From Alistipes sp. (GTDB lineage: Bacteria; Bacteroidota; Bacteroidia; Bacteroidales; Rikenellaceae), in contig JAFQTX010000027.1 in assembly GCA_017408825.1 (NCBI GenBank), positions 39,406 to 103,405 of the forward strand: DNA of 64,000 nt, written 5' to 3'. Positions 17,546 to 38,443 of this stretch are shown here, piece after piece (position 1 is the stretch's first letter; each line of letters opens with the position of its first letter). The notes under the pieces are model-generated. The model worked only from the letters and a program-made list of their open reading frames with translations. It did no database searches and was not told the origin of the DNA. The position numbers and the translations under genes were made by a program.

Positions 17546-18127
17546 TTAAAATAGATAAACCAAATTAATCGCCGCCTTGGTAGGACCAAAGTAGTGGTGA
17601 TCAGACTCACCTATGTTGCGGCCACAACCCGTACAGCTGAATATGTCGTAGTTGAAATAGGTGTAACCAACACCAATCTCGAGCTCAAGGTTCCAGTGTT
17701 TGCCGAGGATGAAGGCGTAGCCATAAGCGACACCGGCACCCACGCCCCAACCCTGATAGCGCTTATCGGTGAAGTTCTTAAATGGGGTGCCCAGGAACGT
17801 AACATTGTTCTTGATGCCTGTGATGTTGTACTGGCCACCGATGGCGTGGAAGCCGAGGAAGTGACGCGAGAAGCGGTCGCAGAACCAGTAGCGAGCCTCG
17901 GGCTGCGCAAACCAGTGACGCCACTTGGTGTCCTCGTCGATGTCCCAAGCGTTGAGGTTACCAGAGATGTCGAGTGTCCACTTAGGAGCAAGACCTATCT
18001 CAACACCGAGGTTCACGGTTGCCGTAGCATCGTAGAGTAGGTTTGTCTTAACAGCGACATCCTGTGCCTTGGCATGTGTGAAGCACAATAGGCCAAGTAG
18101 CAGAGTGATGTAGAACTTTAGTTTCAT
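17546..18127 (-). CDS. DUF3575 outer-membrane beta-barrel protein
   Basis: AVKTNLLYDAT, QPEARYWFC, HWNLELEIGVGY, YFGPTKAAINLVYLF. Confidence 0.92.
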   Translation of the reverse strand: MKLKFYITLLLGLLCFTHAKAQDVAVKTNLLYDATATVNLGVEIGLAPKWTLDISGNLNAWDIDEDTKWRHWFAQPEARYWFCDRFSRHFLGFHAIGGQYNITGIKNNVTFLGTPFKNFTDKRYQGWGVGAGVAYGYAFILGKHWNLELEIGVGYTYFNYDIFSCTGCGRNIGESDHHYFGPTKAAINLVYLF

Positions 18128-18860
18128 AACCTTATTGTTTTAATTTATTTAAGTCTTTAATAAAAGTGGGCTATTGACTCAGTAGTCTCTGTCTGCATAT
18201 TATGTGTAACTGATTATAACCAATTCAATTACTGGTTAAAAAATTTATCCACACCAAATATTGTATTTTTAATCCTAACTATGAGTTTTTTGTTCTTTTA
18301 TCTGTTGCAAATATGGGTTAAAAAAATCATATCTGCAATAGTCTTGAATAAAAAAGTAGCAATATGTCTTTTTTTTAGATACATTATCTTTTTGACTTTT
18401 TTTCTTATTTGCCATTTTTTCATTGGTGGATATAAAGTCAATGTTAATTATATTCTTTTTTATGACGAAAGTGGTCTATTGGTATTTTAACCCTCTATAA
18501 GGCACAAAATAGCGCATAAAGTGCTGTGAAGAGCTGTTTGGAATAAAAATATTAGTTTATTATTCTATTTCATTTATTAATTAGTCAAATTGTTCTCTTT
18601 TACCAATGTTTGGTCGAAGAATAAAAAATCAATATTTTTTTACTCGCGCGCTGAATATTTTTATTTTTAAGTAAAAAATGGAGTATTATGACTAAAGTAG
18701 CATCTAATGGTTGAATGGTATAATTGGGGATTTCGATGATAAAACAATAAAAATTATATTTCGGTTTGTTTACAAAAATTTGTCTTTAATTGAACTTTTT
18801 AACTTTTGAAGAGCAAATTTAATCACATTCAACTTTAAGAGTTTATTCATATTTTATGCA
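18128..18860 (-). promoter_or_regulatory. Very AT-rich upstream region of the pilus operon with candidate Bacteroidota -7 elements
   Basis: About 730 bp non-coding and AT-rich; minus-strand TAAATTTG near 18814-18821 and CATATTTG near 18307-18314. Confidence 0.45.
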
Positions 18861-19045
18861 TCGTGCATCTCGGGCGGTGCTGTTGATGTGGGGCAGAATG
18901 GAGTTTAATGGCGCAGTGAGCATAGAGAGTTATGCTAACGTCCATTGATGTTGCTGAGTATGTTGCTTGGTAATTTTGATAGTAAACCGTAGATGCGCCA
19001 ATAAAATGTATGGGCCTTTTGCGCTTAATGTCCTATTATCTTTTC

Positions 19046-27630: not shown

Positions 27631-28716
27631 CTACAACTCGCTCTCCTTCAATCGCTCGGCATTCTCAGCCACAATGAGCTGGTCGATGACATCCTGAATG
27701 TCGCCGTCCATAAATGCTGAGAGGTTGTAGATGGTGTAGTTGATACGGTGGTCGGTAATTCGGCCCTGAGGGTAGTTGTACGTACGAATTTTCGCAGAGC
27801 GGTCGCCCGTAGATACCATCGTCTTGCGCTTCGATGCAATCTCGTCGAGATACTTCGAGTACTCGAGGTTGAACACTCGTGTACGCAACTCCTCGAAGGC
27901 CTTGTCGAAGTTCTTAAGCTGCGACTTCTGATCCTGACACTGCACAACAATGCCAGTAGGGATGTGCGTAAGACGGATTGCTGAGTAGGTGGTGTTTACC
28001 GACTGGCCGCCAGGACCCGATGCACAGAAGATATCCTTGCGGATGTCGTTCATCGAGATCTCGATGTCGAACTCCTCGGCCTCAGGAAGAACTGCTACCG
28101 ATGCTGCTGAGGTGTGGACACGTCCCTGAGTCTCGGTCTGTGGTACACGCTGTACACGGTGCACGCCCGACTCATACTTCAGGGTGCCATATACGCTCTG
28201 GCCAGTAACCTTGAGCACCACCTCCTTGTAACCACCCGCTGCGCCATCCGACGATGAGGTGATCTCATAGCGCCAACCCTTCGACTCGATGTACTTGGTG
28301 TACATACGTAGTAGGTCGCCAGCGAAGATCGCTGCCTCGTCGCCACCGGTGCCACCACGAATCTCGACAATAGCATTCTTGTCGTCCTGGGGGTCTTTGG
28401 GAATAAGCAACAGCTTAATCTCCTCCTCCATCTTCTCGATGGCGGGCTCGAGCGTTGCAATCTCTTCACGTGCTATCTCACGGAACTCCTCGTCCTTCTC
28501 GTTAGCCATAACATCCTTAGCCTCAGCGAGGTTGGCAATCGCTGTGCGGAAGCGCTCCGATGTCTCGATGATTGGCTCAAGCTCCTTATACTCCTTGGTG
28601 AGCTGAACGAACTGCTTAACGTCGGCAATAACCTCAGGGTCGGTGAGCTTCTGACCTATCTCCTCATACTTTAGGCGGAGGCCGTCGAGACGAATCAATA
28701 TTGAATTATCAGCCAT
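27631..28716 (-). CDS. prfA: Peptide chain release factor 1
   Basis: EIRGGTGGDEA, ESGVHRVQRVPQTE (PxT motif), SGPGGQSVN, IRTYNYPQGR. Confidence 0.98.
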   Translation of the reverse strand: MADNSILIRLDGLRLKYEEIGQKLTDPEVIADVKQFVQLTKEYKELEPIIETSERFRTAIANLAEAKDVMANEKDEEFREIAREEIATLEPAIEKMEEEIKLLLIPKDPQDDKNAIVEIRGGTGGDEAAIFAGDLLRMYTKYIESKGWRYEITSSSDGAAGGYKEVVLKVTGQSVYGTLKYESGVHRVQRVPQTETQGRVHTSAASVAVLPEAEEFDIEISMNDIRKDIFCASGPGGQSVNTTYSAIRLTHIPTGIVVQCQDQKSQLKNFDKAFEELRTRVFNLEYSKYLDEIASKRKTMVSTGDRSAKIRTYNYPQGRITDHRINYTIYNLSAFMDGDIQDVIDQLIVAENAERLKESEL

Positions 28717-28764: not shown

Positions 28765-28965
28765 ACGAAAAATTTTCATTTTCAGTGCTATGCACGCCAT
28801 CTTTATGCACTTTTGATCTCAATGTCGGCTCTTCGGGAGATTATAGAGGCTTCTCCAGTAGGATTGTGTCGAACTCACAAAAATAAATTTTTCGGCTAAT
28901 GTATTGGTAGTTAAAAAGTTTGATTTGTTTCCAAAATTTTTGGTAAAAAAATTTAACAAAAAGAC

Positions 28966-29005
28966 TTGACAAACGCTTTTTGATGTTGTATATTTGCACT
29001 GTCAA
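28966..29005 (+). promoter_or_regulatory. Promoter of the phage-like operon (-33 TTG, -7 TATATTTG) bracketed by a TTGACA/TGTCAA inverted repeat
   Basis: TTG at 28966-28968, 20 nt spacer, TATATTTG at 28989-28996; TGTCAA at 29000-29005. Confidence 0.65.
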
Positions 29006-29241
29006 ACAGGTCGAATGAGTGTTAGTAGCTATCGCATTTAGCCGATTATTAACATATCATAGTTGAGTTTGTGAACATTTATAAAATACTAATGTATAGG
29101 TATATAGTAGGTGTTATAATCATAAATCAACAATAATCAACATAGTATTAACCTAATTATCAACAGTCGTTGTGTAGCTATCATAAAACGGCGGTTGCCG
29201 GGTAAAATTTGCAAACCAATAATAAGTTAAAATATTTAATA

Positions 29242-30240
29242 ATGAGATTTCTGTCAATACCCCAAAGTGGACTATCGTGGCAGCAGCCATTAGTCTACAG
29301 TTTTACAACCGAAGGCGACGAGCCTGAAGATGTAAGGATTGTGATTTACGACCTACAAAGCGGTGAGCCAATAGCGACCAAGATGCTATATGGTGTTACA
29401 GTAGCGCAAGTGGATATTGCTCCCTATCTGCGCTCAGTCTACCAAGAGTCGATCGTAGCGCCCGAGGCAACAGGCGTGATGGTCTCTACCACATCACGAT
29501 ACGTCGGCGTAGATGTGGGTGGGGTAGTGTCATCGCCAGCGCTCTTTCTTGCTGCGCCACTCAATGTTGAGCAGCCTGAGATGTTGTCAATGCTTGCCGA
29601 TGTGCAGGATGTGGAGTATGGCGACTTGATCTACTTCACGCTGTTTACGCCGCAGAGAACCAAGCTGGTAATAACATCGTACACTCCGCTAACCGCTCGC
29701 CGACAACAGTTTACAGGCCCCGAGGTTGCTCAGCCCTTAGATGTGATTATTCACACGGCGAGACTCGCGCCGAATATTAAGAAGATTGTTGTAGATATTT
29801 ACAACGGCGAGGGGCAATATCGCACCTTAACATTCAACATCGTAGCGTCAGACTCACGCTCCAGACGACTCTTTTGGCGCAACGCTCGTGGAGGTGTTGA
29901 GAGCTACTCATTCCCGCGTAGCATACGCCTGGCTACACAGGCCACGATAGATAAGTTTGCGACTGGCAAAGAGTCCTACTATGCGAGGCTAAAGTCTTCG
30001 ACCGAGTGTTATCGACTATGTTCGGCATATGAGTCGGCGAATGAGCTTGAGCGCATTGCAGAGATTATACGCTCGCCATACGTATATGAGATGATGGGTG
30101 GCCAGCTACGACCAGTGGAGCTACGTACTCGCTCGGTGGAGTATGGGGCGCATGGCGAGCTTCGTCAGTTACTCCTTGAGGTGGAGACAGGGTGGGATGG
30201 AGCCTCTCAAACCGACGGAAAGGAGGTCCTCCATGGTTAG
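29242..30240 (+). CDS. Phage structural protein, putative distal-tail/tail-tip component
   Basis: ATG at 29242 after an AT-rich leader; LFWRNARGGVESYSF and EIIRSPYVY resemble tail proteins of Bacteroidota phages (recalled, not searched). Confidence 0.5.
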   Translation: MRFLSIPQSGLSWQQPLVYSFTTEGDEPEDVRIVIYDLQSGEPIATKMLYGVTVAQVDIAPYLRSVYQESIVAPEATGVMVSTTSRYVGVDVGGVVSSPALFLAAPLNVEQPEMLSMLADVQDVEYGDLIYFTLFTPQRTKLVITSYTPLTARRQQFTGPEVAQPLDVIIHTARLAPNIKKIVVDIYNGEGQYRTLTFNIVASDSRSRRLFWRNARGGVESYSFPRSIRLATQATIDKFATGKESYYARLKSSTECYRLCSAYESANELERIAEIIRSPYVYEMMGGQLRPVELRTRSVEYGAHGELRQLLLEVETGWDGASQTDGKEVLHG

Positions 30241-32554
30241 GCTGTGTATTGATGGGGTAGAGGTGATGTTGCGCACCGACTCCATACAGCTCCCTGGCTA
30301 TGATGCCGAGAAGCTGCACTCTGTTGAGCGTTGGCGTCAGGGTAGCGAGATTGTTGTCGAGGTGGTATCAACGCCCGAGAGTGATCGGGTGATGAGGTAT
30401 GCCTTTGACCTACATTGTGGCGATAAGTTTAACTCTGAGTTGCACCATGCACAGATAGATGTTGATGGGATAGTGGTATTCGAGGGTATGGCGACACTGC
30501 TTAGTACCGAACAACGTGCCGACACACGCTACTACCGACTAAGACTTCGTTCGGGAGGTAGCGACTGGGCAGACGATGTGGCTCGTCGAGAGCTCAATGA
30601 TTCGAGGGTGGAGTGCTCTGTAATGATGCGTCCCGCAGGCATCGAGTCTACCTGGGTGGAAGATACCCCCGTACGTTTTCTGCCCATCCGTCGTGATAGC
30701 TATCCTAAGTACAACGAGTCGAGCCTATGGAGTGCCGAGCGAGTGTTGATGCCTAACGACTACCACCCATTTCTCAGCGTAAGGCATATCATCGAGTCGA
30801 TAGCCGCAGCATCGGGTTACAAGCTCAAGAGCCGATGGCTTGAGAGTGAGTTGGCGGGCAAGCTGATGATAAGTGGTGCGTTCAAACGGGTAGATTGTGC
30901 CGAGGTAGACCGCATGATGGGCTTCAAGGCGTATAGGACCAAGAGTGCTACGGCGACAGCTGGTGTCGGGGGTATCCTCTTTGCCTGGGAGACACAGAGT
31001 CTCGGCGCTATTGTAGATAGTGTTTCACCAGATGCTGTCGATGAGGAGGGTAATGTGCTCAGCGATGCCTATAACAATGGCGGGGCACTGCAATTTGTAG
31101 ATGGTCTGCCAGTGTTTACGCCAAAGCGCCAGATAAGCGTATCATTCGAGTATCACATTAAGTATCGTACCGACTACAATATAGTGTCGAGTAGCGAATT
31201 GCAGGGCTTCAATCGGGTTCGTTTGGGTTTGGGCTGCGACGTAGAATTGCGACTTGAAAACCCATATACAAGTCGTCACGAGGAGTTAAATCCCAACACC
31301 GCCTATAAACTCTTCATCTTCGATTATGACCCATCGCAACAATATATGCTTTTGGGTGTTGGAGAGGTGAGTGGCAGGGTGTCACGTGTAGTCACAAGCA
31401 GTAACTGTCCACGAAGTACTCAGCTCTGTATGCGATCTGATAGCGATGCTGAGTATCAGCCATATACTGGTGATTGGGCGCTATACAACGGCTTTGTAGA
31501 GCCCACGGGTAGCCGTGAGGTGGAGTTCGTGGTGCGCACCCCGTATGTTGAGTTTTCGCCATCGTCACCTAAGCAGTTCAACAACGTAGCCTTTTACGGT
31601 GCTACTGAGGGTCAGAGTATGACGCTACTTAGCGGTTGTAGCGTAAGGACAATATTTGGTGGTATCACGGGCTACGGACACAAGGTTAAGTTTAGCGATG
31701 TGGCCAATCACAGATTTACGCAGCAGAGACTCTTGGAGGCCTTAGCACATATGTTCAACCTCTGCTTCTATCCCCACGAGCCCTCGAAAACATTGATTAT
31801 AGAGCCCTACGATGACTTCTTCTCTGGTGCAACGGTCGATTGGCGTCGTCGTCAGCTGCCCCACCAGTGGAGCATCGTGGAGGGGGCACCGCAGAGTAGT
31901 GAGAATGTACGTATCGCCTATGCTGGTAGTGATGGCGTGGTGAGTAGAGCCAATGATGTCTCTGATAAGGAGTTCGGCGTATGGAGTAGATATTTTGAGG
32001 GATATGGCACAAAGCATGGAGTGGATATTCGTCTAAACCCAATCTTGCTGCCGACCATCTCGACAAATGGCTTCTTGGGCTCGGCAGCCTCGGCTGAGGT
32101 GCTTACCGTGGGTGATCGAGATGCGGCGGTCGAGGGCGACTATATCGAGCCACGTGTGGTGCTATATCACGGCATCCAGCCACTTCCCGAGGATGAACGC
32201 TGGAGCTCGATGACGGCTATTGATGGTTACCCTTGCGTGGCCTTTCACAGTGCTACGCTGCAGCAGAGCCTATGTTTCGAGGATCGTGATGGGTGTACAG
32301 GACTTCATACCTACTACGATCAGGAGCTTAGCGAGATTGCCGAGCGAGGGTTGCTACAATGCAAGATACATCTCCCATTAGCCGAATATGTCGCACTATT
32401 AGATCCAGACTCTGAGTCGGCAACAATCCGCTCTCGCTTTCGCCTTGAGGTCGATGGAGCAGAGTCGCTATATACCCTACGTAGCATCGAGGCCTATGAT
32501 GCTGAACGTGGTGTGGCAACCTGCCTATTCAGGCGTTGCACAACAGATAGTTAA
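30233..32554 (+). CDS. Phage tail hub/tip-like structural protein (about 773 aa)
   Basis: Likely ATG at 30233 overlapping the previous stop, preceded by AGGAGG; MVRLCIDG start, YHPFLSVRHIIESI, TQQRLLEALAHMFNL..IEPYDDFF resemble Bacteroidota phage tail proteins. Confidence 0.55.
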   Translation: MVRLCIDGVEVMLRTDSIQLPGYDAEKLHSVERWRQGSEIVVEVVSTPESDRVMRYAFDLHCGDKFNSELHHAQIDVDGIVVFEGMATLLSTEQRADTRYYRLRLRSGGSDWADDVARRELNDSRVECSVMMRPAGIESTWVEDTPVRFLPIRRDSYPKYNESSLWSAERVLMPNDYHPFLSVRHIIESIAAASGYKLKSRWLESELAGKLMISGAFKRVDCAEVDRMMGFKAYRTKSATATAGVGGILFAWETQSLGAIVDSVSPDAVDEEGNVLSDAYNNGGALQFVDGLPVFTPKRQISVSFEYHIKYRTDYNIVSSSELQGFNRVRLGLGCDVELRLENPYTSRHEELNPNTAYKLFIFDYDPSQQYMLLGVGEVSGRVSRVVTSSNCPRSTQLCMRSDSDAEYQPYTGDWALYNGFVEPTGSREVEFVVRTPYVEFSPSSPKQFNNVAFYGATEGQSMTLLSGCSVRTIFGGITGYGHKVKFSDVANHRFTQQRLLEALAHMFNLCFYPHEPSKTLIIEPYDDFFSGATVDWRRRQLPHQWSIVEGAPQSSENVRIAYAGSDGVVSRANDVSDKEFGVWSRYFEGYGTKHGVDIRLNPILLPTISTNGFLGSAASAEVLTVGDRDAAVEGDYIEPRVVLYHGIQPLPEDERWSSMTAIDGYPCVAFHSATLQQSLCFEDRDGCTGLHTYYDQELSEIAERGLLQCKIHLPLAEYVALLDPDSESATIRSRFRLEVDGAESLYTLRSIEAYDAERGVATCLFRRCTTDS

Positions 32555-32573
32555 TCACTAAAACAAGCTAACA

Positions 32574-33749
32574 ATGACTTTTATTACCCCCTCTGGGCAG
32601 AGCTCCTATGGCTCTCTGCCTCGCCCCTCACGTCGATATGAACGCCTCGTCGGACTACTCGTGCACCACAATTTGGTCGATTGTTCGAGGCTGCGAGATA
32701 GAGCCATACACAGCTACGTAGAGCAGATGTGTCGCAAGGGTTTTCGCCGTTGTAGTGCTATGGAGCAGGCGGCCTACGATCTCGGATGCTCCTACTCGAC
32801 AGCTCGTAGGGCGGTATACGAAGTAGATAAAACCAAATCAAACATTAACTCTATGAACTCACAAATCAAGATCAAGAATGAGGCCGATTGCACGATAATC
32901 GACATCGAGGGTACGATAGGCCTCTCCGAGGAGTGGCAGTTCGACAATCCTGAGAGTCGTGTGGCCACCTATGAGCGATTTAAGGAGTGCGTGGCAGGCA
33001 TTGCCGACATCGAGAATAGCCATATCGTGGTGAACATACGATCGACAGGTGGCGATGTGAACGATGCGATGCTCATATACGAGGCGCTACGTGCAACAGG
33101 TGCTCACATCACCACACGCTGCTATGGCTACACCGCCTCGGCAGCAACTATCGTGGCGCAGGCTGCCAGCGAGGGTGCTCGTGAGATAGCCTCCACGTCG
33201 CTCTATCTTATCCACAACTCGCTATGCTCGACCGAGGGTAATGCCGAGGAGCTTCAGGCCGAAGTGGAGCTGCTACGCCAGACCGACCGCCGTATTGCAG
33301 AGCTATATGCTACACGCTCTGGGCATAGTGTCGAGGAGATTAGTGCCTTGATGGCAGAGAATGGTGGCCGTGGCCGCTGGCTATCACCCGAAGAGGCTCT
33401 TGCCGAGGGTCTTGTGGATCGTATAATCAACGACTCACGGGCTGTGGACAAGGAGGCAGCGACGCTTGTCGAGCGCACCAAGCAGGGTGTCATGGCGCTA
33501 CTTAAGGCTATCGGCATCGACACCGACACGGAGCATCCAAACGTGGGTGATGACATCAACGTGATCTCACGATCGCTACCCGAGGCGGTAGCATCAGCTC
33601 ATCCCTCGACAATAGCCCTCGATGAAGGTCAGCGTGCAGCACGTGCCTCGGAGGTTATGCCTACACAAGACCCCTCGCCAATATCTCAGACGGTGGATGC
33701 TCGTAGTAGTGCCTATGAACGTGACGTGCAGCTCATCAAAAAGCGATAA
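32574..33749 (+). CDS. Clp-type prohead protease/scaffold with an N-terminal HTH-like extension (possible internal start at 32853)
   Basis: NIRSTGGDV, GYTASAAT (catalytic Ser), YLIHN (His), WLSPEEALAEGLVD; N-terminal AMEQAAYDLGCSYSTARRAVY. Confidence 0.85.
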   Translation: MTFITPSGQSSYGSLPRPSRRYERLVGLLVHHNLVDCSRLRDRAIHSYVEQMCRKGFRRCSAMEQAAYDLGCSYSTARRAVYEVDKTKSNINSMNSQIKIKNEADCTIIDIEGTIGLSEEWQFDNPESRVATYERFKECVAGIADIENSHIVVNIRSTGGDVNDAMLIYEALRATGAHITTRCYGYTASAATIVAQAASEGAREIASTSLYLIHNSLCSTEGNAEELQAEVELLRQTDRRIAELYATRSGHSVEEISALMAENGGRGRWLSPEEALAEGLVDRIINDSRAVDKEAATLVERTKQGVMALLKAIGIDTDTEHPNVGDDINVISRSLPEAVASAHPSTIALDEGQRAARASEVMPTQDPSPISQTVDARSSAYERDVQLIKKR

Positions 33750-33796
33750 CAAACACTTTACAACCACTTTTATTAACCAACTAAAACCTTAAAACT

Positions 33797-34759
33797 ATGG
33801 GACTTATTGAAAACACAAAGACCTACTACGGTCGTGACCTTGAGACAATCTTTTTCCGTCCAATGTTTTCGGCAGAGAATGCCGAGCAGCTTGGCATTCG
33901 TGTACTCTACAATATGCCAGTGCCCACAACAATTCAGATGTGGAGCCCGCAAAGCGACATCCTCCAGAACTACGAGGCGGGTTGGAATGGTGGCGAGTCG
34001 GCTATCCGTATGCAGAAGAATATAGAGCTTACTAAGATCAAGGCCGAAGTGGGATTCTCGGCATCGACCTACTTCCAGGAGGTGCTTGAGCTGATCACTG
34101 GCCGTGCAGATGTAAATCTCGATGATCTCACAGGCACTGAGCTTGAGGCTGCCGAGACGGAGATGTTCCGTGCTGCTATTGCCGAGAGTCTACGTGTGAC
34201 AATGTGGCTTGGCGATATCGATTCGGATCGCTATAACAAGTTCAATGGATTCTTGCATAAGATTGTCAGGGATGCGAGCATATTGCCTATCAGTCACGAT
34301 CTTGTGGAGCCAACGGGTGACAATATTTTGCAGCTCTTCAACCTTATGTGGAAGAGTGCCTCGCCAACATTGAAGGCCTTGAAGCACGATGGTAATCTCG
34401 CCTTCTTCGTAACCTCGGACATCTATGATGCCTATGAGCAGCACCTCGACTCGTGTGGTACGGATGCCTCGTACAACGACCTTACAACAGGCCGTCGTGA
34501 GCTCTCGTACCACGGCATCAAGATCATCGATATGGGTATCTCGCAGTATCTGCCCGATACGTCGTTCGAATTTGGCTCGGCGTGTATCCTCACCGATCGT
34601 CGTAACCTTGTTATGGCAGTGAACACGGCAGACTACCCAGGCTCGGAGGTGCGTATGTGGTATAACCCCGACGAGATGGAGAACCGTCAGCGTGCAATCT
34701 TTATGGTGGGCTGTGAGATTGTCGATGATGATCTCATCGTAATTGCAACCTTCAAGTAA
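33797..34759 (+). CDS. Putative major capsid protein (HK97 fold)
   Basis: 320 aa directly after the prohead protease; MWLGD..KFNGFLHKI, FFVTSDIYDAY, LSYHGIKI, ILTDRRNLVMA patterns; long A/C-rich initiation region. Confidence 0.75.
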   Translation: MGLIENTKTYYGRDLETIFFRPMFSAENAEQLGIRVLYNMPVPTTIQMWSPQSDILQNYEAGWNGGESAIRMQKNIELTKIKAEVGFSASTYFQEVLELITGRADVNLDDLTGTELEAAETEMFRAAIAESLRVTMWLGDIDSDRYNKFNGFLHKIVRDASILPISHDLVEPTGDNILQLFNLMWKSASPTLKALKHDGNLAFFVTSDIYDAYEQHLDSCGTDASYNDLTTGRRELSYHGIKIIDMGISQYLPDTSFEFGSACILTDRRNLVMAVNTADYPGSEVRMWYNPDEMENRQRAIFMVGCEIVDDDLIVIATFK

Positions 34760-34772
34760 AAGAGGTAAGACT

Positions 34773-35999
34773 ATGTCTTGTGACAAGATTGCAACACGCA
34801 TTGCCGCCACCCGCAACCACACCGAGCCACTATTTGGCTCGGTGTCGGGTGGAAGGCTTGTCGGCGACAAGGTGTGGCTCTGGGGTGATGACAATCTACT
34901 ACCCAATGCCCTCTCGCTGATGGCTCGACGCTCGGCTATTCATCGTCGTATAATCAACGATAAGGCCGACTACATTGCTGGTAAGGGCCTTACATTCAGT
35001 GAGAGAACACCTATCCTCGGCGACATTATCCGTCGTGCTAATGGCTCGGGCGATACGCTACGTAGCGTCATCGCTCGGCTGGCACTCGACGAGGCGATGT
35101 TCGGAAATGCCTTTTTGGAGGTGGTGACCGACTCGTCGCATAGCTTCCTGTCGTTGTATCATGTCGATGCCTCGACCTGCCGTATCGCCCGTGACTCGGA
35201 GCATGTGGTTATGCACCACGACTGGCAAGCCTACCGAGCCTCCGAGGCCGTTACGCTACCACTCTACCCACACTTCGAGGAGCAGAACGATGGTACGCTA
35301 CGCAGCATCGTTCACTACAAAGACTATGAGCCTATGTTCAGACACTATGGCGTTGCCCCCTACATCGCAGGACTCGGCGCTGCGGCCATACTCTACAAAA
35401 CGGACAAGTGGAACATTGCACGCCTCGACAACTCGTTTCAGCTCTCTGGTGTGATGATGCTTGATGGCGCTGTGGATAGCGAGGATGAGGCTGAGAGGCT
35501 TGTGCGTATGGCCGAGGAGCGCTTCTCGGGAAATCCTGGTCAGGTGCTCTTCGTGCTGCGTGACCATAATGATGGCGATAACTCACGATTTATACCTATC
35601 GACACGCAGTCGGATGGTGATTGGGCATCGCTACACGAGCGCTCGGAGGCTGACCTGGTTGTTGCTCACTCGTGGTTTCGCTCGCTCAGCGGCTTGGACT
35701 ACTCGTCGGGCTTCTCCACAGAGCGCATCTTGCACGAATACGAGGTGGCACTGAATACCGTCATCCTATCGGAGCAGGAGCAACTTCTCGAGCCTATACG
35801 TGAGATTATCTCATTGATCTTGGGTGTGGATGCCTCGTCGTTGGAGATAATTAATCGTCCACCAACACGCTCCAAGCCTCTCTATATGCGAGTGTGGGAG
35901 GCGCGCAAGGCCGATGGTCTCGACTACGACGAGAGCGATCCCGACCAACAGCTCTTCTTAGCGCAAATAACAAAGTATAACATCACTTCATTAGAGTAA
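34773..35999 (+). CDS. Phage portal protein
   Basis: WGDDNLLP..RSAIHRRIINDKADYIAGKGL, DEAMFGNAFLEV, HYGVAPY, LDNSFQLSG, EYEVALNTVI. Confidence 0.8.
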   Translation: MSCDKIATRIAATRNHTEPLFGSVSGGRLVGDKVWLWGDDNLLPNALSLMARRSAIHRRIINDKADYIAGKGLTFSERTPILGDIIRRANGSGDTLRSVIARLALDEAMFGNAFLEVVTDSSHSFLSLYHVDASTCRIARDSEHVVMHHDWQAYRASEAVTLPLYPHFEEQNDGTLRSIVHYKDYEPMFRHYGVAPYIAGLGAAAILYKTDKWNIARLDNSFQLSGVMMLDGAVDSEDEAERLVRMAEERFSGNPGQVLFVLRDHNDGDNSRFIPIDTQSDGDWASLHERSEADLVVAHSWFRSLSGLDYSSGFSTERILHEYEVALNTVILSEQEQLLEPIREIISLILGVDASSLEIINRPPTRSKPLYMRVWEARKADGLDYDESDPDQQLFLAQITKYNITSLE

Positions 36000-36004
36000 C
36001 TACT

Positions 36005-36466
36005 ATGCAGACACTTATTACACCCACTCAGGTTGTTGCGTTGGCCTTTAGTGGTGAGGAACTTATGTCGAAAGATATTGTCACTCAGAGTGATATCATT
36101 GAGGCAGAGGCTCGTCATATCCGCCCGATACTGGGCGATGCCCTCGTCGATAAGTTACACGCAGGTGAGTATTCGGCTCTTCTCAACGACTATGTTGCTG
36201 TGGCTCTGGCTGCCTGGTGTCGCTATACTGTTGAGCCGCTGCTCGATGTTAGGTGCGATGCGTGTCATCGTGATAGTCGGCGTACCACTGCCGATAACGA
36301 GCACCATGCCGCTGTTATGCGCTCACTGCGCCGTAAGGCCGTAACCCTCTCTCATCGCCTCAGTGATCATCTCAATGCTCACGCTGGCGACTACCCTGAG
36401 TATAACCCTAAAAGCAACCCATTAAACTACTGTTCAATCTATGGTGATATTATCCAAGTACGTTAG
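36005..36466 (+). CDS. Putative head-tail adaptor/head completion protein
   Basis: 153 aa after the portal; IIEAEARHIRPILGDAL..RLSDHL..YPEY pattern of Bacteroidota phage adaptors. Confidence 0.6.
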   Translation: MQTLITPTQVVALAFSGEELMSKDIVTQSDIIEAEARHIRPILGDALVDKLHAGEYSALLNDYVAVALAAWCRYTVEPLLDVRCDACHRDSRRTTADNEHHAAVMRSLRRKAVTLSHRLSDHLNAHAGDYPEYNPKSNPLNYCSIYGDIIQVR

Positions 36467-36866
36467 CGGCCTCGTTGCTGCTCTTTTGGCCCTGCTCTGT
36501 CCAATAACACCCCTTATCATTACCGCCACGGTGTTTATCACAATTGACTTTATCACAGGCATCTACGCCTCGTATGCGGCAGCTCGCCGTGAGGGTCAAA
36601 AGTGGAGTATCGAGAGCCGTAAGGCGTGGCGCACAGTCTATAAGCTGGGCTTCGTAGTCACGGGCATTGTGATGACCTGGTTGGTCGATTCGCTGGTGCT
36701 CAGCTTTATGCATCTTAACCTTGCCAACCTCTTCACTGGCTTTGTGTGTGGCGTGGAGCTATGGTCCTTCTTCGAGAACGCCTCCACAATTAGCGGTGTC
36801 GAGATTTTCGAGTGGCTCGGCCGATGGATTAAGAGTAAACTAAGAAAGGAGATAGGCGATGAGTAG
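36441..36866 (+). CDS. Phage holin (holin family 4-like)
   Basis: Three hydrophobic segments; IDFITGI, ESRKAWRTVYK, ELWSFFENA; basic C-terminus; overlaps the lysin. Confidence 0.85.
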   Translation: MVILSKYVSGLVAALLALLCPITPLIITATVFITIDFITGIYASYAAARREGQKWSIESRKAWRTVYKLGFVVTGIVMTWLVDSLVLSFMHLNLANLFTGFVCGVELWSFFENASTISGVEIFEWLGRWIKSKLRKEIGDE

Positions 36867-37263
36867 AGGTCTTCGTAATTGTAATCCAGGAAATATCCGC
36901 AACTCGCACAGCCGCTTTGCTGGTGAGGTGCGACCATCGCAGGATGCTGCCTTTAAGCAGTTTGAGACGATGGCCTATGGTTATAGAGCGATGTTTGTGC
37001 TGCTCGATACCTATCGCAGGCGCTACGGTCTCGATACCATTCGAGGTATGATTAGCCGCTGGGCTCCCCCCGTGGAGAACCATACAGAGGGCTATATTCG
37101 CTATGTTGCCGAGCGCACGGGTATCGACGCTGATGCTAAGCTCGACACTCGCTCCGAGCGTGATATGATCCCCGTGGTGGCTGCAATGTCGCAGATGGAG
37201 AATGGCGTGAAGGCCGTGTGGGAGGATGTCGAGGCGGGCTGGAGACTCTTCGCCTCTCGCTAA
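36859..37263 (+). CDS. Putative endolysin (lysozyme-like, 'structural protein P5' family)
   Basis: RGLRNCNPGNIR, F..MAYGYRA, ISRWAPPVENHTEGY, MSQMENG; directly after the holin. Confidence 0.8.
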   Translation: MSRGLRNCNPGNIRNSHSRFAGEVRPSQDAAFKQFETMAYGYRAMFVLLDTYRRRYGLDTIRGMISRWAPPVENHTEGYIRYVAERTGIDADAKLDTRSERDMIPVVAAMSQMENGVKAVWEDVEAGWRLFASR

Positions 37264-37273
37264 TTTTTAGAGA

Positions 37274-37316
37274 TTGATGCGGGTAGATGGTGCACCTACC
37301 CGCATCAACTTTTATT
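37274..37316 (+). terminator. Intrinsic terminator closing the phage-like operon
   Basis: 13 bp stem TTGATGCGGGTAG/CTACCCGCATCAA followed by CTTTTATT. Confidence 0.85.
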
Positions 37317-37423: not shown

Positions 37424-38443
37424 ATGCATAATAGGGTATTGGTCACTGGAGGTGCTGGATATATCGGCTCGCACACTACCGTGGAACTTATAAATGCTGG
37501 CTACGAGGTTATAGTTGTCGATAATCTCTCGAATAGCGATCGTGGAGCGTTGGAGGGTGTCCGTCAGATCACTGGCGTGGAGCCTAAGTTTATCGAGGCC
37601 GACTGTTGCGATCGAGATGCTATGCGCCGTGTGTTCGAGGAGTATGAGTTTGACTCGGTAATTCATTTTGCTGCCTATAAGGCTGTGGGTGAGTCTGTTG
37701 CTGAGCCAGCGAAGTACTATCGCAACAACATCCTGTCGTTTGTCACTATCCTTGAGCTGATGTGCGAGTTTGGGCGTAAGAACATCTTGTTCTCATCCTC
37801 GGCAACAGTCTATGGCGATGCCGACGTGTTGCCCGTAACCGAGCTTACACCTCGCAAGCCCGCAACCTCACCCTATGGTAATACCAAGCAGATGGCCGAA
37901 GATATTCTGCGAGATATGGTAGCTGCCAACGAGCACCTATCGGGCATTGCGCTGCGCTACTTCAATCCTATCGGTGCGCACCCCTCGGCACTTATCGGTG
38001 AGCTACCTCGTGGTGTGCCCAACAACCTTGTCCCCTATATCACCCAGACTGCGGCAGGCATTCGTGAGTGCCTGAGCATCTTTGGCGACGACTATGATAC
38101 TCCCGATGGCTCGTGCCTTAGAGATTATATCGACGTGGTGGATCTGGCTAAGGCTCACGTAGTAGCTATTCAGCGCCTTGTGGATGGTCGCAATAAGCAC
38201 CGCTACGAGATCTTCAACGTAGGTACTGGCCGCCCAGTGTCGGTATTTGAACTCGTGCGAGGTTTCGAGGAGGCTAACTCGCTAAAGCTAAACTACAAAG
38301 TGGCGCCACGTCGTGCTGGGGATGTTATGGCTGTATGGGCCGATACTCGACTGGCCAACGAGGAGCTTGGTTGGAGGGCTGAGCGTGAGCTGTACGACAC
38401 GCTGCGTGCTGCCTGGGAGTGGGAGAAACACCTCAGACAATAA
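37424..38443 (+). CDS. galE: UDP-glucose 4-epimerase
   Basis: VTGGAGYIGSHT, HFAAYKAVGES, FSSSATVYG, YGNTK, LRYFNPIGAH; TACATTTG promoter at 37390-37397 supports the start at 37424. Confidence 0.97.
   Translation: MHNRVLVTGGAGYIGSHTTVELINAGYEVIVVDNLSNSDRGALEGVRQITGVEPKFIEADCCDRDAMRRVFEEYEFDSVIHFAAYKAVGESVAEPAKYYRNNILSFVTILELMCEFGRKNILFSSSATVYGDADVLPVTELTPRKPATSPYGNTKQMAEDILRDMVAANEHLSGIALRYFNPIGAHPSALIGELPRGVPNNLVPYITQTAAGIRECLSIFGDDYDTPDGSCLRDYIDVVDLAKAHVVAIQRLVDGRNKHRYEIFNVGTGRPVSVFELVRGFEEANSLKLNYKVAPRRAGDVMAVWADTRLANEELGWRAERELYDTLRAAWEWEKHLRQ

What the first reader, a model, noticed from the sequence alone, without database searches (positions are those of the whole stretch)
29209..37316. 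Candidate gene-transfer-agent-like / domesticated phage particle operon between prfA and galE
Seen: eight intact, co-oriented, abutting or overlapping ORFs in 8 kb. A host-type TAnnTTTG promoter opens the block and a strong intrinsic terminator closes it, with core genes on both sides. No frameshifts, integrase, att repeats, repressor or replication genes are visible, and codon style looks host-like by eye. Family knowledge: Clp prohead protease, capsid, portal, adaptor, holin and lysin are the head and lysis modules of tailed phages. Known GTAs (RcGTA, VSH-1, BaGTA) are host-controlled structural clusters of this kind, often with other functions at separate loci. Inference: this is a host-maintained particle-producing system rather than a decaying prophage. 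I do not know of a characterised GTA in Rikenellaceae.
Basis: partly seen in the sequence, partly recalled or inferred. Interest (0 to 1): 0.92.

Follow-up and report, generated by a model that had tools for sequence, protein, structure and literature searches.

The report
Tube-less tamed phage system of Alistipes
This gut bacterium, like about nine in ten sampled species of its family (Rikenellaceae), carries an intact, inherited set of phage head, tail-tip, DNA-packaging and cell-lysis genes split over separate chromosomal sites, which likely builds a damage-inducible gene-transfer-agent-like particle, though no particle or gene transfer has been shown.

Summary
The block encodes a tail-tip pair, a small HTH-like protein fused to the Clp prohead protease, a capsid, a portal, an adaptor, a holin and a lysin.

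It is not a decaying prophage. The capsid gene is in 362 of 400 sampled family genomes, nearly always once, and dN/dS is 0.11-0.25. Its trees broadly follow rpoB.

A CI-type repressor, a 95-aa phage gene and an intact TerL form a second locus (TerL in 365 of 400 genomes), and a spanin-like gene forms a third. Both main loci share a rare promoter and an operator-like palindrome.

Two patchy helicase or helicase-primase modules carry the same promoter; they may be satellites or run-off origins. No tail tube, tape measure or small terminase was found in this lineage.

Best reading: a GTA-like particle, likely induced by DNA damage (about 0.55). Particles, packaging and delivery are untested, and one gut virion survey listed no Rikenellaceae GTA event. 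The scan found this system before in two other genomes (e1-5263542, e1-4312833). My literature searches found no description of it.

The parts
27631..28716 (-). prfA (host gene, upstream flank, divergent)
   Evidence: PCRF/RF-1; adjacent in 43 of 66 related loci
28911..28923 (.). Operator-like palindrome, distal site (-55 from the TTGAC); repressor binding inferred
   Evidence: Conserved column block in 66 promoters; PWM trained on the repressor locus only
28944..28956 (.). Operator-like palindrome, proximal site (-22); repressor binding inferred
   Evidence: Among the two best sites in 43 of 66 operon promoters
28966..28996 (+). Operon promoter-like site, TTGAC-N18-TATATTTG
   Evidence: Found upstream of the first gene in 66 of 96 loci with a relaxed pattern; only 7 of 413 AT-rich TAnnTTTG sites in this genome have TTGAC at that spacing
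29242..30240 (+). ORF1, 332 aa: two Ig/FnIII-like domains plus a C-terminal split-barrel-like domain; distal-tail (Dit-like) role inferred
   Evidence: Model pLDDT 94; whole-length matches to uncharacterised Caudovirales proteins, TM 0.7; PDB gives Ig folds and one split barrel at Z 8.2, no Dit; same position in related phages
30233..32554 (+). ORF2, 773 aa: baseplate hub / Tal-like protein with an inserted C1q/TNF-like knob (about residues 217-476), a likely receptor-binding part
   Evidence: Model pLDDT 91.5; Z 9.2-9.6 over 303-312 residues (rmsd about 5) to Milano, 7-7-1 and Mu baseplate hubs; knob Z 9.8 to the phi812 spike knob
32574..32852 (+). Conserved HTH-like unit (93 aa), fused in frame to Clp in this lineage; function unknown (Mor-like lead only)
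   Evidence: 68 hits in related loci, 40 fused; Atlas Mor 0.77
32853..33749 (+). ClpP-type prohead protease with a C-terminal extension (scaffold role inferred)
   Evidence: Ser96 and His121 invariant in 14 of 14
33797..34759 (+). Major capsid protein (HK97-type, inferred)
   Evidence: PHROG hits; Atlas neighbours with PF05065 at 0.98, 25% of members; 50% identical to the same-position gene of related phages
34773..35999 (+). Portal
   Evidence: phrog_11226, TIGR01540 and PF04860 (the last two below their cut-offs)
36005..36466 (+). DUF6712 protein; head-tail adaptor role inferred from position
   Evidence: PF20459; follows portal in phages
36441..36866 (+). Holin
   Evidence: PF05105; in 53 of 66 loci
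36859..37263 (+). Endolysin-like protein
   Evidence: phrog_873 E 8e-46; in 65 of 66 loci
37274..37312 (+). Intrinsic terminator-like hairpin
37424..38443 (+). galE (host gene, downstream flank)
   Evidence: Epimerase

Best explanation
The block is the head, tail-tip and lysis operon of an anciently domesticated, chromosomally fixed phage system of Rikenellaceae, which likely works as a gene-transfer-agent-like particle: a host-encoded CI-type repressor would hold it silent, DNA damage would cleave the repressor, and a separately encoded terminase would fill the heads with host DNA before lysis. SHOWN: the genes, their conservation, purifying selection, split location and shared promoter sequence; the intact catalytic motifs; no integrase in or beside the block. 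INFERRED: repressor binding to the palindromes; RecA-dependent induction (from the S24 Ser/Lys and Ala-Gly motifs; established for CI/LexA proteins); headful, non-specific packaging; lysis by holin, lysin and a spanin-like protein. PREDICTED: in this lineage the particle has no tail tube, so the Dit-like and hub proteins would dock close under the portal-adaptor as a stub. UNTESTED: particle formation, DNA content and delivery.
For: Capsid gene in 362 of 400 family genomes and 220 of 226 in the genus, nearly always one match, with no stops in the listed matches; in 0 of 24 genomes of other families of the order. TerL (G000:C38:73966-75426) in 365 of 400. Seven genera lack both (capsid 0 of 22, TerL 1 partial of 22). 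In closed Alistipes-genus genomes the two loci lie 0.7-1.5 Mb apart; in G104, G099, G087 and G125 they are adjacent or about 10 kb apart. Repressor-p95-TerL order in 30 of 30 close loci. Median dN/dS 0.11-0.25 for the operon, 0.07 for TerL and repressor, against 0.02-0.24 for three host genes. rpoB against concatenated capsid+portal+TerL in 29 genomes: 11 of 26 splits shared (shuffle maximum 3), patristic rho 0.90. TerL Walker A/B and nuclease acidic residues invariant in 31 of 31. The repressor keeps Ser, Lys and Ala-Gly in most rows. A PWM trained only on the repressor locus scores 74% of 66 operon promoters above the 95th percentile of 413 control promoters, against 7% after shuffling. Related temperate phages have the same gene order plus integrase, replication, TerS, tape measure and fibres, which the host system lacks. 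TerL is 47% identical to that of vB_BfrS_23, described as circularly permuted (PMC7644841, passages).
Against: No particle, packaging or transfer data. In the gut virion survey PMC12946183, Rikenellaceae were among the most abundant families (passage), yet none of the 63 listed packaging events labelled GTA carries a Rikenellaceae name. Two rows, 'A. megaguti' and 'A. avistercoris' (Alistipes, recalled), are classed as prophage induction (supplement 3, both parts). The candidate tail-tube gene was not found in 11 of 15 genomes, four of them closed. No tape measure fits at its ancestral place, and that family was not found in 4 of 5 genomes. No TerS was found here. So packaging and injection lack known parts. 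Trees have 2 strongly supported conflicts with rpoB, and the two related phages fall among the basal host copies, so a single capture is not shown. The operator is AT-rich, and the window's own promoter ranks only 12th of 413.
Confidence: 0.55

Rival explanations
1. Particles form and may package DNA but do not deliver it. The benefit is programmed lysis with release of protected DNA, decoys or adhesive or killing particles (PBSX-like in outcome).
For: Loss of tail tube, tape measure and TerS in many lineages while head, tail-tip and lysis genes stay. PMC12946183 raises the same alternative for FpGTA (passage).
Against: No sheath or tube, so it is not a tailocin. TerL and portal are among the most conserved parts, which a pure lysis role would not need. 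The hub keeps a knob domain.
Confidence: 0.22
2. Anti-phage function: the fixed repressor gives immunity to the related temperate phages, and the head genes and TerL interfere with their assembly or divert their packaging.
For: Close temperate relatives still exist (capsid 47-71%, TerL 50-60% identical). Missing tail parts could be borrowed from such phages.
Against: The host repressor is only 21% identical to that of phage G445. The promoter form was not found in the three phage records. A holin and lysin are kept in the operon.
Confidence: 0.1
3. The system is a resident helper whose main cargo is small replicons: the helicase/primase modules that share its promoter replicate on induction and are packaged preferentially.
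For: Same promoter at 16 of 19 close helicase-primase loci and 25 of 30 lone-helicase loci, against 0 of 29 rpoB loci. These modules are patchy, sit at varied sites and are sometimes multi-copy. The lone helicase is bracketed by 79-bp inverted repeats.
Against: The modules were found in only 23 of 400 and 72 of 230 genomes, so they cannot explain family-wide maintenance. No integrase hit near them.
Confidence: 0.08
4. An ordinary defective prophage that is decaying.
For: Several virion genes are missing.
Against: Single copy in about 90% of sampled species across 24 genera, no stops in listed capsid matches, dN/dS well below 1, trees follow the host.
Confidence: 0.02

Closest known systems
FpGTA of Faecalibacterium (PMC12946183; passages and supplement 3 read)
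   Same: Gut commensal; near-ubiquitous in its genus; two separate loci; particles without identifiable tails.
   Different: Different phylum. FpGTA keeps TerS-TerL with the head genes and is described as podovirus-like, with particles and ~8.5 kb DNA shown. Here TerL sits with a CI repressor away from the head genes, the ancestor had a tape measure, and nothing is shown experimentally. Sequence homology was not tested.
Bartonella BaGTA with run-off replication (PMC2697382; passages read)
   Same: Conserved phage clusters at separate loci; a phage-derived helicase locus linked to the system; tail-less particles in some species.
   Different: The Bartonella helicase cluster is well conserved and its amplification is shown. 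The AAA_25/DUF6371 modules here are patchy, at varied sites, and linked only by promoter sequence.
RcGTA / CcGTA and the GTA viriform definition (PMC9662315; passages read)
   Same: Caudoviricete-derived genes, endogenised at several loci, vertically inherited.
   Different: RcGTA has a tape measure, a tail terminator (PMC7947584, passage) and a TerS (PMC6854486, listing only). Control here appears to be a retained cleavable CI-type repressor.
Temperate phages in IMG/VR (G444, G445, G446) and Bacteroides phages B40-8 and vB_BfrS_23
   Same: Same order of tail-tip pair, Clp, capsid, portal and DUF6712; TerL 50-60% identical to G445/G446 and 47% to the Bacteroides phages; a p95 homolog near the repressor in G445.
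   Different: The IMG/VR phages keep integrase, replication genes, TerS, tape measure, the 181-aa candidate tube protein and fibres, and use a different lysin (M15).

Membership tests
Gene transfer agent (definition of PMC9662315) | Uses caudoviricete-derived proteins (similarity or imaging) | tested here: met
   Portal, protease, TerL, holin and hub hits; same gene order in phages. Particles were not imaged.
Gene transfer agent (definition of PMC9662315) | Mostly encapsidates random host DNA | not testable with these tools
   Needs particle DNA. One published survey lists no Rikenellaceae GTA event.
Gene transfer agent (definition of PMC9662315) | Fully endogenised, often across multiple loci | tested here: met
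   Genomic side only: single-copy loci among host genes, 0.7-1.5 Mb apart in closed genomes.
Gene transfer agent (definition of PMC9662315) | Own genome cannot be fully packaged | tested here: inconclusive
   Follows if loci are Mb apart, but head capacity is unknown.
Gene transfer agent (definition of PMC9662315) | Vertical inheritance, co-diversification with host | tested here: met
   Broad congruence with rpoB in 29 genomes: 9-12 of 26 splits shared, shuffle maximum 3, 0-2 strong conflicts (FastTree).
Gene transfer agent (definition of PMC9662315) | Packaged DNA delivered to other cells | not testable with these tools
   Needs a transfer assay.
Active temperate prophage | Contiguous element with integrase, replication and full virion genes; patchy presence | tested here: not met
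   Split loci, near-universal, no integrase at the block, tape measure not found.
Tailocin (R- or F-type) | Tail tube, tape measure (and sheath) without head genes | tested here: not met
   The opposite pattern: head genes kept; tube candidate and tape measure not found.
Phage satellite (for the helicase modules) | Integrase, excision and helper-dependent packaging | tested here: inconclusive
   No hit with one phage integrase query in 58 loci; packaging is untestable here.

The most novel reading that the evidence does not exclude
Rikenellaceae carry an independently evolved, damage-inducible gene transfer agent, none of which my searches found described for Bacteroidota. In many Alistipes it has shrunk to a head plus tail tip with no tube, tape measure or small terminase, yet still delivers DNA. 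It is parasitised or steered by 1-2.5 kb helicase/primase modules that have adopted its promoter and operator, so that they and their neighbouring DNA are amplified and packaged.
Probability: 0.25. Interest if true: 0.93.

Novelty: new variant of a known kind. Interest (0 to 1): 0.76.

Why it matters
Alistipes and relatives are abundant gut bacteria. A family-wide GTA would be a major unrecognised route of gene exchange in the gut and an independent GTA origin in a new phylum. Living phage relatives and a graded series of gene loss show how a phage is tamed. The repressor gives a direct switch to test function. A tube-less, TerS-less particle would define the minimum needed to package and deliver DNA. 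These loci also enter viral catalogues as false phages.

Tried and rejected
Expression: three RNA runs hold the stretch, but their contigs cover the whole 20 kb evenly, flanks included, so DNA carry-over cannot be excluded. Not used as evidence.

A TIGR01547 terminase search found nothing in this genome or in the four phage records. TerL was found with the phage proteins as queries instead.

PDB sequence searches with the capsid and the candidate-tube alignments gave nothing significant. The 'tail tube' label rests on position, size and homology to the 181-aa phage gene.

The fold search did not return a Dit for ORF1; Ig domains filled the list.

One search used wrong ORFs for two rpoB rows and was redone. 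G083 was left out (no rpoB match). One search timed out and was rerun with filters.

The idea that the helicase-primase locus is a core part of the system was rejected: 23 of 400 genomes.

The idea that the repressor is a general SOS regulator was not supported: no repair gene was evident among the 14 top-scoring promoters of 413 (genes judged from N-terminal sequence only).

The strict promoter pattern missed the operon promoter in the five closed genomes, where the spacer is longer, and returned a repeat family in G174.

Literature searches found no description. The supplements of PMC13371034 could not be read and could bear on that claim. No complex prediction was run.
Full report
OBSERVATION. 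The window is G000:C29:39406-103405. The closest relatives are public records titled Alistipes sp. or Rikenellaceae bacterium. Eight co-oriented ORFs lie between prfA and galE. Families: Clp-type head maturation protease, portal, DUF6712, holin and endolysin, with weak major-head hits for the 320-aa gene. The Atlas places that gene at 0.98 beside clusters with PF05065 (25% of members). The promoter-like site (28966-28996) and the terminator hairpin are real. A ninth unit, an HTH-like ORF at 32574-32852, is conserved: 68 hits, 40 of them in frame with Clp as here.

WHAT THE UNKNOWN GENES ARE. ORF2 folds (pLDDT 91.5) as a baseplate hub: Z 9.2-9.6 over 303-312 residues, rmsd about 5, to the Milano, 7-7-1 and Mu hubs. 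It carries an inserted C1q/TNF-like knob. ORF1 (pLDDT 94) has two Ig-like domains and a C-terminal domain whose only listed match is a split barrel (Z 8.2). It matches uncharacterised Caudovirales proteins over its length. Its Dit role is inferred from position.

DISTRIBUTION. The capsid gene was found in 35 of 36 genus genomes and 0 of 24 genomes from other families of the order. In a larger draw it was in 362 of 400 family genomes, nearly always once. Of 80 related loci, 66 had enough flank. ORFs 1-6 were in 66 of 66, lysin in 65, holin in 53, and all eight in order in 53. prfA was adjacent in 43 and galE in 15.

THE ANCESTOR AND THE MISSING PARTS. Of 31 IMG/VR matches, many are host-type loci, but G444, G445 and G446 are temperate phages. 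Their order is TerS, TerL, 312 aa, 136 aa, 156 aa, ORF1-like, ORF2-like, tape measure, Clp, capsid, 181 aa, 86 aa, portal, DUF6712, fibres, holin, lysin. Their TerL found a 60%-identical gene in this genome: G000:C38:73966-75426, preceded by a 95-aa gene and a divergent XRE/S24 repressor, between yidC and a peptidase. This TerL is in 365 of 400 family genomes. Seven genera lack both genes (capsid 0 of 22, TerL 1 partial of 22). The two loci are 0.7-1.5 Mb apart in closed Alistipes-genus genomes, but adjacent or about 10 kb apart in G104, G099, G087 and G125, a trace of the original single element. A spanin-like gene (label from my knowledge of Bacteroidota lysis cassettes; 44% identical to a G446 gene) sits alone at G000:C11:41776-42399. 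It was found in 13 of 15 genus genomes and 0 of 13 genomes from the system-negative genera, and directly after the lysin in G075 and G079.

GRADED LOSS. In a hand-picked set of 29 genomes that all carry the system, the candidate tube gene between capsid and portal was in 20, and a TerS-like gene beside TerL in 7. The tube candidate was in 0 of 43 loci of the prfA-adjacent clade and 13 of 23 others. Genome-wide it was found in 4 of 15 genomes, always at the operon, and not in four closed genomes. The gap from ORF2 to the capsid gene is 991-3198 bp in 24 loci and includes Clp, which leaves no room for the 3.2-4.4 kb tape measure. G000 is only 83% complete, so absence rests on those relatives.

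SELECTION AND INHERITANCE. Median NG86 dN/dS for pairs with dS 0.05-1 (pairs are not independent): ORF1 0.20 (4 pairs), ORF2 0.11 (5), Clp 0.19 (41), capsid 0.25 (100), portal 0.12 (63), adaptor 0.17 (25), holin 0.18 (90), lysin 0.14 (46), repressor 0.07 (29), p95 0.41 (20), TerL 0.07 (11). Host genes: prfA 0.02, galE 0.07, vtc 0.24. Catalytic motifs are intact in TerL, Clp and the repressor. FastTree trees of 29 genomes share 9-12 of 26 splits with rpoB against a shuffle maximum of 3. The concatenate gives patristic rho 0.90 with 2 strong conflicts. Two phages form a pair among the basal host copies in a midpoint-rooted tree, so one capture is plausible but not shown. The genus copies form one side at support 100.

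REGULATION. An earlier scan note (e1-5263542) suggested a shared operator, and I tested it. The operon and the p95-TerL promoter share TTGAC-N18-TAnnTTTG, a form seen at 7 of 413 AT-rich sites in this genome. A palindromic matrix (TYMAA-N3-TTKRA) trained only on the repressor intergenic region put 74% of 66 operon promoters above the 95th percentile of the 413 controls, at fixed offsets (-22, -55). Shuffles gave 7%. The promoters are related by descent and the motif is AT-rich, so binding remains inferred.

NEW HERE: REPLICATION MODULES WITH THE SAME PROMOTER. Two of the seven sites drive an AAA_25 helicase plus a Zn-ribbon/DUF6371 primase-like gene (G000:C29:18925-20934) and a lone AAA_25 gene (G000:C40:168627-169808). 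They are patchy (23 of 400; 72 of 230), sit at varied sites, and are sometimes multi-copy or broken. Yet 16 of 19 close and 25 of 30 loci carry the promoter, against 0 of 29 rpoB loci. The matrix scored 80% of 15 and 50% of 18 above the control threshold. The lone helicase is bracketed by 79-bp inverted repeats that recur as short pairs elsewhere, and one integrase query found nothing nearby. They read as small mobile elements wired into the regulon: satellites, or run-off origins as in Bartonella (PMC2697382, passages). Look-ups in the scan's notes found no mention.

MECHANISM. Most likely (0.55): damage cleaves the repressor; the operon and TerL are expressed; heads are matured by Clp and filled by a headful-type TerL (47% identical to that of circularly permuted vB_BfrS_23); they are closed by the adaptor and a stub tail tip, and released by lysis. 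Against this: TerS, tube and tape measure are missing, and a gut virion survey with abundant Rikenellaceae listed no GTA event for them (PMC12946183, passages and supplement 3). Tight repression could explain that. RNA runs were uninformative. Rivals: non-delivering particles or lysis (0.22), anti-phage function (0.10), helper for small replicons (0.08), decay (0.02).

COMPARISON AND NOVELTY. Three of the six GTA criteria of PMC9662315 (passages) are met genomically, one is inconclusive and two need experiments. It is therefore a strong candidate, not a member. Seven literature searches over an open-access library found no description. I read passages of PMC7947584 and of the preprints 10.64898/2026.07.08.737213 and 10.64898/2026.01.26.701711, with no mention of Alistipes. 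Supplements of PMC13371034 were not available. The scan had noted the system in two other genomes; that is not independent support. Verdict: a new variant of a known kind, interest 0.76.

Noticed in passing
L307:7925-9934 (G000:C29:18925-20934, outside the window): Helicase (AAA_25) plus primase-like (Zn ribbon, DUF6371) two-gene module with the operon's promoter; 51-bp inverted repeats lie inside the primase-like gene (possible origin).
   Followed up: partly
L308:8627-10300 (G000:C40): Lone AAA_25 gene with the same promoter, bracketed by 79-bp inverted repeats. Similar repeat pairs 400-500 bp apart on C2 and C18 look like non-autonomous derivatives. A dispersed REP-like repeat family lies in its leader.
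   Followed up: partly
L371:1500-3030 (G024:C2): Similar promoter upstream of a 94-aa HTH-like gene, a 105-aa holin-like gene and a lipoprotein, in a genome whose operon lacks the holin (labels from sequence appearance).
   Followed up: partly
L338-L367 (G174): About 30 copies of a dispersed repeat that carries a promoter-like TTGACA-N17-TATCTTTG upstream of unrelated genes.
   Followed up: no
L377-L381 (G244): Several extra copies of the regulon-type promoter, some without an obvious downstream gene (possible remnants of the helicase modules).
   Followed up: partly
L111-L116, L125, L126, L137; phage record MT838736.1: Host-type copies of the operon are filed as viruses in IMG/VR and, probably, GenBank (7.4 kb record, matched only by the capsid gene).
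   Followed up: partly
window 18001-19000: GC drops to 0.31 against about 0.51 for the window.
   Followed up: no
G000:C13:17879-17962: Divergent promoters with the best operator-matrix score in the genome, upstream of a lipoprotein-like and an unknown gene.
   Followed up: no
L139, L140, L070, L279: Insertions inside or between operon genes in a few relatives (capsid match spread over 7-8 kb in L139/L140); single TerL genes are split or carry a stop (e.g. G069).
   Followed up: no
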